Of a stretch of DNA of 64,000 nt, positions 30,395 through 31,778 are shown piece by piece. The DNA comes from Escherichia coli (GTDB taxonomy: Bacteria; Pseudomonadota; Gammaproteobacteria; Enterobacterales; Enterobacteriaceae). Location: the NCBI RefSeq assembly GCF_044324875.1, contig NZ_CP172185.1; one strand, given 5' to 3'. Under the pieces are notes generated by a model. It had not been told where the DNA came from and did not search any database. It saw only the letters and a program-made list of their open reading frames with translations. The position numbers and the translations under genes were made by a program. Position 1 is the first letter of the stretch. Each line of letters begins with the position of its first letter.

Positions 30395-31063
30395 TTATAA
30401 ATCATTATCAATCAAACTCAGGAATGTATCTCTGGCATAATTACCAACGATGTTGGTTGTTATCGCATCAAGACTACCACCAACGATTCCTCCTACAACA
30501 GGAACAAACTTTGACATATTAATAACACCAGTAGCACCTGTTTTTGTAAGCAGTCTGAAACCGACTGCCTTATTTATCTTTACAATAATATCTTTACTAA
30601 TACATCTAATTGCATTTGTTGTCAACTTTTGTCCTATCTGAATTCCTGCTTCCTTCAAAATATCTTTCGCAGCATTACCTACAAGACAGGTATAAACAAT
30701 AGTTCTGACTTTATCATCACGAATATCCTGGCCACACATGATCGCAATAGATGCAACCATCCTGACCTGAATGAAAAGGACACTTGAAATATTGGTCGGT
30801 ATAGTTACTGGTAATGTAATAATTCCTCCAAGACCAGTAAGAAAACCTGATGTGGCTGACTTGGTATTTTGCCATCGAATAAGGCTATTTATCTGTTCTT
30901 TTAAACTACTACCCGTTTTCAGATAACTTTCCGCAAGACTATGTGCCGTATCAATTCCTGGGATACCAATACCATCGATGGATTTTTCATAAGCGTAATC
31001 CAGAAATTTTATGATTTTTGATGGCGTGAGAATATTTTCATTATCAGTCATACAACAAAACAC
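30395..31063 (-). CDS. EcsC-like protein (glycine-rich, partly hydrophobic), function unknown
   Basis: 222-aa ORF in an AT-rich block; glycine-rich segments TSGFLTGLGGIITLP and VPVVGGIVGGSLD resemble the EcsC family (from memory, unverified). Confidence 0.55.
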   Translation of the reverse strand: MFCCMTDNENILTPSKIIKFLDYAYEKSIDGIGIPGIDTAHSLAESYLKTGSSLKEQINSLIRWQNTKSATSGFLTGLGGIITLPVTIPTNISSVLFIQVRMVASIAIMCGQDIRDDKVRTIVYTCLVGNAAKDILKEAGIQIGQKLTTNAIRCISKDIIVKINKAVGFRLLTKTGATGVINMSKFVPVVGGIVGGSLDAITTNIVGNYARDTFLSLIDNDL

Positions 31064-31142
31064 CTAAAAATTTCACGATCACTTTCTAAAAACTATCTCC
31101 GACAGATATCGGAACACCAGTATTATCACCAATTAAATAATA

Positions 31143-31364
31143 TTATTTTTTGAGAAACAATTGTATTGCTCTGGCAAAAAGATTTTCTGTAATTGTAGCC
31201 TTACGTTTATAAATAACTTTCTCTCCACACACAGGACATTCATAAAATCCTGCTGTACAATTCATATGAATAATAGTTTTACTCCATTGACAATTTGTAC
31301 AGATAAATGTAATGGGTGGACAGGGAAAAATCATTGGCTCACACTCTCGATATATAAATAACAC
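31143..31364 (-). CDS. Small zinc-ribbon protein (62-73 aa)
   Basis: Two Cys pairs CTNC...CPVC; alternative start at MIFPCPP (31334); sits between the two flanking minus-strand ORFs. Confidence 0.5.
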   Translation of the reverse strand: MLFIYRECEPMIFPCPPITFICTNCQWSKTIIHMNCTAGFYECPVCGEKVIYKRKATITENLFARAIQLFLKK

Positions 31365-31424
31365 TTACAGGGACATGTAAATATTTTCGATTTATCCCTA
31401 TAAAAATAACTTCACCTCCAGTAA

Positions 31425-31778
31425 TCAATTCAGTTCTGTAAGACGATCGATTATTTTACGTAGTTCATCTGCAGAATCACATGTATCCAGTGAAATTTTT
31501 ATTCTAAAATTCTTTAACCAATTAGCAGCCTCCTGATCTTCACGCCATAAACGCTCCCCGCTCCAATCCCCCCTAAAACATAGAGCAGCAATAGCCAATC
31601 CTCTGCATGCTGGCCGATTATGCTCAGATGTATTATTTTGGTTATAAAAATCGTTAATTCTTTCTACCGGAGATGATTTTATTTTATCCCACACATTGAA
31701 ATTAGCTTTTTTCATCGTTTCAGCAGCAGCATTAGAAGCAAGCTTACCGAATCCCATTATAGCATCCCAAAATCCCAT
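31425..31778 (-). CDS. Hypothetical protein (117 aa), first gene of a putative three-gene operon
   Basis: ORF with plausible start; same strand and close spacing with the two downstream ORFs; no recognisable domain. Confidence 0.5.
   Translation of the reverse strand: MGFWDAIMGFGKLASNAAAETMKKANFNVWDKIKSSPVERINDFYNQNNTSEHNRPACRGLAIAALCFRGDWSGERLWREDQEAANWLKNFRIKISLDTCDSADELRKIIDRLTELN

What the first reader, a model, noticed from the sequence alone, without database searches (positions are those of the whole stretch)
30395..31778. AT-rich three-gene operon of unknown function (117-aa protein, zinc-ribbon protein, EcsC-like protein): top candidate for an undescribed system
Three same-strand, closely spaced ORFs lie in a markedly AT-rich block inside the island, flanked by IS630/ISAs1 debris on one side and an outer-membrane protein gene on the other. 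The last gene encodes a glycine-rich, partly hydrophobic EcsC-like protein, the middle one a four-cysteine zinc ribbon, the first a protein with no recognisable domain. None belongs to a defence, toxin-antitoxin or secretion family I can name, yet the compact layout in a horizontally acquired island next to a P4-type integrase is typical of small accessory systems such as anti-phage or abortive-infection modules. Whether it is a system at all is inference.
Basis: partly seen in the sequence, partly recalled or inferred. Interest (0 to 1): 0.7.

Follow-up and report, generated by a model that had tools for sequence, protein, structure and literature searches.

The report
EcsC-type candidate defence gene with partners
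The three genes are real, but the last one belongs to a widespread mobile family already listed, though never tested, as a candidate anti-phage gene (PADLOC PDC-S29), and the new result is that a rare small helical protein repeatedly sits next to genes of this family.

Summary
Three minus-strand ORFs lie in a 31-37% GC block: A 31425-31778, B 31143-31334/31364, C 30395-31051. All three evolve under purifying selection.

PDC-S29 is an untested phage-defence candidate.

C's family is highly conserved (55-65% identity across phyla), patchy (327 of about 100,000 species genomes) and mobile. It is usually solitary: 80 species loci have no A or B and no recurrent neighbour, and one 2.1-kb plasmid carries C's homologue as its only annotated gene.

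A is a soluble, TPR-like helical protein from a tiny family (16 representatives in 1.8 billion).
- In complete E. coli genomes A always sits beside C (24 of 24).
- Distant A homologues lie directly downstream of two very different EcsC genes.
- Other A homologues lie beside JukAB and PDC-M09.

B is a fast-evolving, cysteine-rich small protein found only in E. coli. PGAP does not annotate it, and its segment is recombinant.

Best reading: an EcsC membrane-effector candidate with a lineage-specific A partner and a B accessory, probably anti-phage. The function is inferred, not shown. I rate it a new variant of a known candidate, of moderate interest.

The parts
30395..31051 (-). Gene C: 218-aa EcsC-family protein, PADLOC PDC-S29. 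The ORF extends to a GTG at 31063. Predicted all-helical, with a Gly-rich hydrophobic hairpin at about residues 66-110 and a second Gly-rich segment at about residues 180-205.
   Evidence: ORF; RefSeq start; PDC-S29 at 6.4e-86 over 10-216 of the protein and 10-214 of the 220-position model; Pfam EcsC 3.2e-11; AF2 pLDDT 71, pTM 0.75; hydropathy; dN/dS 0.03-0.14.
31143..31334 (-). Gene B: about 63-aa cysteine-rich small protein (CxxC...CPVCG), a possible zinc ribbon. The ORF is open upstream to a GTG at 31364. PGAP does not annotate it.
   Evidence: ORF; frame open and N-terminal CxxC kept in four variants at 84, 73 and 33% identity; dN/dS 0.24-0.42; dS against the L002 variant is 0.31, compared with 0.04 for A and 0.08 for C, so the segment is recombinant; only two protein clusters, both E. 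coli; only weak zinc-ribbon matches.
31425..31778 (-). Gene A: 117-aa soluble helical protein, a small TPR/alpha-solenoid-like bundle with a conserved MGFWD N-terminus. It belongs to a very small orphan family.
31815..31904 (-). B': a truncated 29-aa paralogue of the N-terminus of B (MALPQPPVTFICTRCKWRKTIVQ...), lying upstream of A. Probably a remnant of a duplication.
   Evidence: tblastn of B gives 58% identity over 24 aa; ORF; DNA alignment; further decayed in the L002 variant and absent from the L011 and L015 variants.
31097..31114 (-). Weak terminator-like hairpin between B and C. It may attenuate read-through. This is a consensus match only.
   Evidence: 7 pairs, 3 of them G-C, followed by a T-rich tail.
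31991..32740 (-). Flanking same-strand outer-membrane beta-barrel gene (Adr/OmpW-like). It is not part of the module: it is full length here but only an N-terminal stub in the other E. coli variants.
26736..27929 (+). Tyrosine integrase of the island that carries the module. The same island is inserted at different chromosomal sites in different strains.
   Evidence: after glnH; after ulaD; after gcvP; Pfam families of the homologous integrase.

Best explanation
The locus is an E. coli-specific elaboration of a mobile single-gene module.

Gene C is an EcsC-domain protein of the PADLOC PDC-S29 family. It is predicted to be helical and to attach to the membrane through a glycine-rich hydrophobic hairpin. 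I infer that it is the effector. By analogy with other membrane-acting defence proteins, it would act on the cell membrane when a phage infects, as in abortive infection or exclusion. That step is analogy only.

Gene A is a small soluble TPR-like protein. I infer that it is a protein-binding partner of C, a sensor, adaptor or regulator, because members of its tiny family repeatedly sit next to EcsC genes and next to other candidate or proven defence modules.

Gene B is a rapidly evolving cysteine-rich small protein. I infer that it is a lineage-specific accessory or regulator.

Shown here: the genes are real and under selection; C belongs to the family; the family is mobile and usually solitary; A and EcsC genes recur as neighbours. 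Inferred: anti-phage function, membrane action and the roles of A and B.
For: - C matches PDC-S29 over its full length and Pfam EcsC.
- PDC families were proposed from genes embedded in BREX, DISARM and type I R-M systems, and they are untested.
- C's family shows 55-65% identity from E. coli to Bacillales, Bacteroidales and Campylobacterales, yet occurs in only 327 species genomes, which indicates horizontal spread.
- The family is on 209 plasmids. One is a 2.1-kb plasmid where it is the only annotated gene. On Klebsiella IncFIB plasmids it follows PDC-S31 next to the ter cluster.
- Of 30 nearest neighbours in 15 species loci, 3 are strong PADLOC matches: Old/GajA, PDC-S12 and GmrSD-like Orf5/HEC-06. 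An E. coli variant lies next to type I R-M plus an AAA_15 gene.
- The Juk preprint reports EcsC-like genes in putative operons with jukA.
- A-C link: A is adjacent to C in 24 of 24 complete E. coli genomes that carry A, and in four variants with A at 99, 86 and 69% identity.
- Distant A homologues at 32-33% identity lie 33-43 nt downstream of an EcsC gene in L125 and L103. Those two EcsC proteins are only about 23% identical to each other, while their A partners are 67% identical.
- Other A homologues lie next to JukA-JukB, next to PDC-M09A/B plus BrxR, and next to WYL-TerB with a PDC-M09A-like gene.
- C has a hydrophobic hairpin, and A and B are soluble. A is TPR-like.
Against: - No experiment supports defence for PDC-S29 or any EcsC protein.
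- Most C homologues have neither A nor B, so A cannot be generally required.
- About half of the A-family contexts examined have no EcsC nearby.
- Only 3 of the 15 sampled species loci had a recognised defence gene as one of the two nearest neighbours. The sample is small and has no matched control.
- The window's own island carries envelope and metal-uptake cargo (an outer-membrane protein, YebF-like, DolP-like, DoxX and sitA) rather than known defence systems.
- The very high conservation of C is unusual for defence effectors.
- Several E. coli copies are disrupted.
- The promoter scan is not above chance, so transcription as one operon is not shown.
Confidence: 0.45

Rival explanations
1. 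C is a self-sufficient single-gene module, as PADLOC's 'S' class implies. A and B are unrelated island genes that happen to travel with it in E. coli.
For: - 80 species loci lack A and B and have no recurrent neighbour.
- C's homologue is the only gene on a 2.1-kb plasmid.
- Gaps of 90 nt separate the genes, and a terminator-like hairpin lies before C.
- B's segment is recombinant.
Against: - A is adjacent to C in 24 of 24 complete E. coli genomes that carry A, across island contexts and insertion sites.
- A-like genes are next to two EcsC proteins that share only about 23% identity, in the opposite gene order. That is hard to explain by hitch-hiking, given that EcsC occurs in about 0.3% of species genomes.
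Confidence: 0.2
2. The locus is not defence. C is a membrane or envelope-homeostasis protein, as its EcsC name suggests, carried as cargo with other envelope genes. A and B modulate it.
For: - Pfam EcsC match.
- The neighbouring genes encode an outer-membrane protein, YebF-like and DolP-like proteins, DoxX and SitA.
- The very strong sequence conservation fits a conserved cellular partner.
- 12 of 15 sampled loci have no recognised defence neighbour.
Against: - No ecsA/ecsB ABC-transporter genes lie next to C here or in the 80 species loci.
- The distribution is patchy and borne on plasmids and islands.
- The A-family contexts are rich in Juk, PDC-M09, BrxR and WYL genes.
- PDC-S31 is adjacent on Klebsiella plasmids.
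- From my own recollection, not checked here: B. subtilis ecsC mutants have no clear phenotype, so the name implies no known function.
Confidence: 0.2
3. The locus is an addiction or toxin-antitoxin-like stabilisation module. C is a membrane toxin held in check by A and/or B, and the pair stabilises islands and plasmids.
For: - Compact layout close to the integrase on a mobile island.
- A Gly-rich hydrophobic protein paired with small soluble proteins.
- The small gene B evolves fast.
Against: - C occurs alone on a 2.1-kb plasmid and alone in most genomes. It therefore cannot be constitutively toxic without a linked antitoxin.
- No match to any toxin-antitoxin family in NCBIfam, Pfam or PADLOC.
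Confidence: 0.1

Closest known systems
PADLOC PDC-S29, with sister family PDC-S30. These are single-gene phage defence candidates from Payne et al., bioRxiv 10.1101/2024.01.29.577857.
   Same: C matches the PDC-S29 model end to end (285 bits, E 6.4e-86) and PDC-S30 weakly. As that class implies, the family is usually a solitary gene in variable and mobile contexts.
   Different: The family is an untested candidate, so membership says nothing about mechanism. In this window C is not embedded in a BREX, DISARM or R-M system. It comes with two extra conserved genes (A and B) that are not part of the PADLOC definition.
Pfam EcsC (PF12787); the prototype is EcsC of the Bacillus subtilis ecsABC operon.
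   Same: Significant domain match (3.2e-11) over residues 53-214. Size and Gly-rich hydrophobic segments are similar.
   Different: The match covers only model positions 82-235 of 240. No ecsA/ecsB ABC-transporter genes are adjacent here or in the 80 species loci. No solved structure or structural relative exists.
Juk (JukA/JukB) anti-jumbo-phage system and its jukA-associated operons (bioRxiv 10.1101/2022.09.17.508391).
   Same: The preprint lists EcsC-like PF12787 genes as putative operon partners of jukA. An A-family gene lies directly after jukA-jukB in L097. The logic would be the same: a small sensor plus an interchangeable effector.
   Different: None of A, B or C matches the JukA or JukB models. 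JukA and EcsC profiles are unrelated (hhalign probability 0.2%). There is no jukA in this window.
PDC-M09 (A/B) candidate system with BrxR/WYL regulators.
   Same: A-family genes occur next to PDC-M09A/B and next to a PDC-M09A-like gene with WYL and TerB. Those proteins, like C, have Gly/Ala-rich hydrophobic segments.
   Different: No PDC-M09 or WYL gene is in this locus. C is unrelated in sequence to PDC-M09.

Membership tests
PADLOC PDC-S29 | Full-length match to the family HMM | tested here: met
   E 6.4e-86, 285 bits, protein residues 10-216 against model positions 10-214 of 220.
PADLOC PDC-S29 | Found embedded in or next to known defence systems (the basis on which the candidates were proposed) | tested here: inconclusive
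   Not embedded in this window. An E. coli variant lies next to type I R-M plus AAA_15. 3 of 15 species loci have a strong PADLOC neighbour. PDC-S31 is adjacent on Klebsiella plasmids.
PADLOC PDC-S29 | Demonstrated anti-phage activity | not testable with these tools
   The authors describe the 145 PDC systems as untested. No paper in the library reports a test.
Pfam EcsC (PF12787) | Significant domain match | tested here: met
   i-E 3.2e-11, residues 53-214, model positions 82-235 of 240.
B. subtilis-type Ecs system | Linkage to ecsA (ABC ATPase) and ecsB (permease) | tested here: not met
   No ABC-transporter genes flank C in the window or its RefSeq copies. No recurrent neighbour in 80 species loci.
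Juk system | Presence of JukA (and JukB) homologues | tested here: not met
   A, B and C give no JukA or JukB match in PADLOC, although the same library detects JukA and JukB in L097. hhalign of EcsC against JukA gives probability 0.2%.
Zinc-ribbon proteins (gene B) | Two conserved CxxC knuckles and a match to a zinc-ribbon profile | tested here: inconclusive
   CxxC...CxxC is present in the window. The first knuckle is kept in all four variants. The second is CPVYG in the L011 type. Profile matches are all sub-threshold, E 0.002-0.4.
TPR/Sel1-like repeat proteins (gene A) | Helix-turn-helix repeat fold and a profile match | tested here: inconclusive
Type II toxin-antitoxin systems | Match of either partner to a known toxin or antitoxin family | tested here: not met
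   No such match in NCBIfam, Pfam or PADLOC.

The most novel reading that the evidence does not exclude
A-family proteins are a portable sensor or regulator that plugs into several unrelated glycine-rich, membrane-associated effectors: EcsC/PDC-S29, EcsC/PDC-S30-like, JukAB and PDC-M09. The E. coli A-B-C block would then be a previously undescribed multi-gene defence system, with the hypervariable, recombining B protein tuning specificity.
Probability: 0.15. Interest if true: 0.7.

Novelty: new variant of a known kind. Interest (0 to 1): 0.45.

Why it matters
PDC-S29/EcsC is one of the more widespread untested defence candidates. This analysis found more than 2,200 protein clusters, hundreds of plasmids and presence in many phyla, with unusually high conservation and no structural relatives. 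This locus offers a natural E. coli version for direct testing in E. coli with standard coliphage panels. The recurrent A partner gives a concrete handle for asking how an EcsC protein is controlled. If A proves to be a shared adaptor for EcsC, Juk and PDC-M09 modules, that would link several currently separate candidate systems. If nothing is found, the result usefully prunes a database candidate.

Tried and rejected
- NCBIfam and PHROGs gave only noise for all three proteins.
- Pfam found nothing for A, alone or as a 12-member family.
- I tested whether EcsC is a remote homologue of JukA and rejected it.
- I looked for a zinc-ribbon or A-like gene next to C homologues in Proteus, Paenibacillus, Aeromonas and 80 species loci and found none.
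- I looked for any recurrent neighbour of C. The most frequent occurs in 5 of 80 loci and appears, from its sequence only, to be an integrase or transposase.
- Rfam and tRNA scans of the whole window were empty.
- The promoter scan was not above the shuffled expectation.
- The first metagenome scan, with the full A alignment, failed because the alignment was too diverse. A narrower alignment worked.
- Literature searches for the RefSeq accessions and for the '3HP' P4-hotspot system found nothing usable. I could not test 3HP beyond the absence of any PADLOC match for A and B, and I did not verify that PADLOC contains a 3HP model.

Full report
**Observation**

The three ORFs are present on the minus strand:
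- A: 31425-31778, 117 aa.
- B: 31143-31364, 73 aa from a GTG.
- C: 30395-31063, 222 aa from a GTG. RefSeq starts C at the ATG at 31051, giving 218 aa.

The block is AT-rich, GC 0.31-0.37 against roughly 0.45-0.55 around it. The flanks are as described. An ISAs1 fragment and a partial transposase lie on one side, an outer-membrane beta-barrel gene on the other, and a tyrosine integrase lies 2.5 kb away. PGAP annotates A as a hypothetical protein and C as an EcsC family protein. It does not annotate B.

**Are they genes?**

The A-B-C block occurs in E. coli in four diverged forms:

| Variant | A identity | B identity | C identity |
|---|---|---|---|
| Window type | 100% | 100% | 100% |
| L002 | 99% | 84% | 99.5% |
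| L015/L016 | 86% | 73% | 90% |
| L011-L014 | 69% | 33% | 84% |

Nei-Gojobori dN/dS is 0.08-0.23 for A, 0.03-0.14 for C and 0.24-0.42 for B.

B's frame is open in all four forms. The conserved start is the ATG at 31334 (MIFPCPP...; 63 aa). The first CxxC is invariant. The second, CPVCG, is CPVYG in the L011 type. B is therefore very probably a real but fast-evolving gene.

Between the window and L002, B's dS is 0.31, against 0.04 for A and 0.08 for C. The B segment has therefore been exchanged by recombination. B has homologues only in E. coli, in two clusters. A decayed 29-aa copy of B's N-terminus lies upstream of A at 31815-31904.

**What C is**

C matches PADLOC PDC-S29 over its whole length (E 6.4e-86), the sister family PDC-S30 weakly, and Pfam EcsC (3.2e-11). 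PDC systems are 145 untested candidates. They were derived from genes embedded in BREX, DISARM and type I R-M systems. The one paper that names PDC-S29 only lists a PADLOC hit.

C's family has these properties:
- It is large, with more than 2,200 clusters.
- It is remarkably conserved. Mean column identity is 68% in an alignment spanning Enterobacterales, Vibrio, Aeromonas, Burkholderiales and Bacillales.
- It is found in only 327 of about 100,000 species genomes. That patchy distribution indicates horizontal transfer.
- It is on 209 plasmids, 180 of them Klebsiella, and in two unannotated records of about 11 kb labelled as Listeria phages.
- In pE6474.4 (2,131 bp) it is the only annotated gene and the only plausible ORF.
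- On Klebsiella IncFIB plasmids it directly follows a PDC-S31 (DUF2971) gene beside the ter cluster.

The AlphaFold model is all-helical (pLDDT 71, pTM 0.75), with low confidence in two Gly-rich segments. There is no structural or sequence relative in the PDB. Hydropathy shows one hydrophobic hairpin at about residues 66-110.

**Is the triplet a system?**

Outside E. coli it is not.
- In Proteus, Paenibacillus and Aeromonas the neighbours differ.
- In 80 species loci, tblastn finds no A or B. Clustering of 867 neighbouring ORFs finds no family in more than 5 loci.
- Of the 30 nearest neighbours of at least 150 aa in 15 loci, 3 are strong PADLOC matches: Old/GajA, PDC-S12 and GmrSD-like. This is suggestive, but the sample is small and has no control.

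**The A-EcsC link**

A has no family match. Its family is tiny, 16 representatives among 1.84 billion.

In complete E. coli genomes, A occurs in 24 and C-like DNA in 33. All 24 A genomes have C next to A. The C copies without A are diverged plasmid variants.

Two distant A homologues, 32-33% identical to A, lie 33-43 nt downstream of an EcsC gene, which is the opposite gene order:
- In L125 the partner is a canonical PDC-S29-type protein, 56% identical to C.
- In L103 the partner is a remote EcsC, about 23% identical to either, and PDC-S30-like.
- The two A partners are 67% identical to each other.

An EcsC partner has therefore been swapped while the pairing was kept. EcsC genes are present in about 0.3% of species, so I infer that this adjacency is not chance.

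Other A homologues lie in these contexts:
- After jukA-jukB.
- Next to PDC-M09A/B and BrxR.
- Next to WYL-TerB and a PDC-M09A-like gene.
- Alone.

The Juk preprint independently notes EcsC-like genes in putative operons with jukA. However, A, B and C are not Juk proteins, and EcsC is not related to JukA.

A's model (pLDDT 81) is a six-helix bundle. Its only resemblances are TPR-like.

**Mechanism**

This section is inference. C is the conserved working part, probably a membrane-associated effector. A is a soluble protein-binding partner, a sensor, adaptor or regulator, that some lineages have attached to EcsC and to other modules. B is a lineage-specific, rapidly changing accessory.

Anti-phage function is the most likely role, given the PADLOC candidacy, the mobility and the company the genes keep. 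I put it at about 0.45.

The rival readings are as follows:
- C acts alone, with A and B as passengers.
- C has a non-defence envelope role, which the island's other envelope cargo (outer-membrane protein, YebF-like, DolP-like, DoxX, SitA) makes plausible.
- The locus is an addiction module. This is disfavoured because C exists alone on a tiny plasmid.

**Novelty and score**

The core gene is already catalogued. The recurrent A partnership and the unannotated B gene are, as far as the searched literature shows, undescribed. I classify the locus as a new variant of a known (candidate) kind, with interest 0.45.

Noticed in passing
window 31815-31904 (-): A 29-aa ORF (MALPQPPVTFICTRCKWRKTIVQIVVLKD) is a truncated paralogue of the N-terminus of B and lies just upstream of A. 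This suggests an older duplicated arrangement of B-like gene plus partner. It is more decayed in L002 and absent from the other variants.
   Followed up: partly
L122 (NZ_CP116985.1, plasmid pE6474.4, 2,131 bp), gene at 1380-2054: A 2.1-kb E. coli plasmid whose only annotated gene, and only plausible ORF, is an EcsC/PDC-S29-type gene 63% identical to C. Rfam found no replication RNA at gathering threshold.
   Followed up: partly
L124 (K. pneumoniae IncFIB plasmid NZ_CP077783.1), 5207-6636: A DUF2971 gene (PADLOC PDC-S31, E 5e-93) lies 27 nt upstream of the EcsC gene. The pair sits beside the TerD/TerY/VWA/PP2C/kinase cluster and a DUF1778-GNAT toxin-antitoxin pair. About 180 Klebsiella plasmids carry this EcsC variant.
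   Followed up: partly
L007-L010 and L017 (Aeromonas), genes at about 4252-4938 and 5001-5627: A 228-aa protein with an FHSHP motif, which resembles a JAB/MPN metalloprotease signature, lies 62 nt upstream of the EcsC gene on the same strand, between core genes. It has no PADLOC match.
   Followed up: no
L097 229-2550: jukA (E 5e-80) and jukB (E 1e-65) are followed on the same strand by an A-family gene. A convergent kinase-AAA (IetA/PD-T4-6-like) gene follows. This looks like a compact defence island on a metagenomic contig.
   Followed up: partly
window 26736 onward; L001, L002, L121: The same integrase-led island (integrase, A-B-C block, outer-membrane protein, yebF-like, dolP-like, DoxX, sit genes) is inserted after glnH (as in this window and L001), after ulaD (L002) or after gcvP (L121). 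No tRNA gene is present in the window.
   Followed up: partly
window 34051-36469: An IS21-family element (a 548-aa transposase ORF plus a second ORF) lies immediately upstream of the dolP-like gene. It is absent at this position in the otherwise identical L001 copy.
   Followed up: no
E. coli genomes NZ_CP082349, NZ_CP092500, NZ_CP009166, NZ_CP043825, NZ_AP045773: Several copies of the module look damaged: C is split or only 60% covered in two genomes, C is annotated as two hypothetical proteins in one, and A is half-length in one. One human isolate (NZ_AP045773) carries three copies.
   Followed up: no
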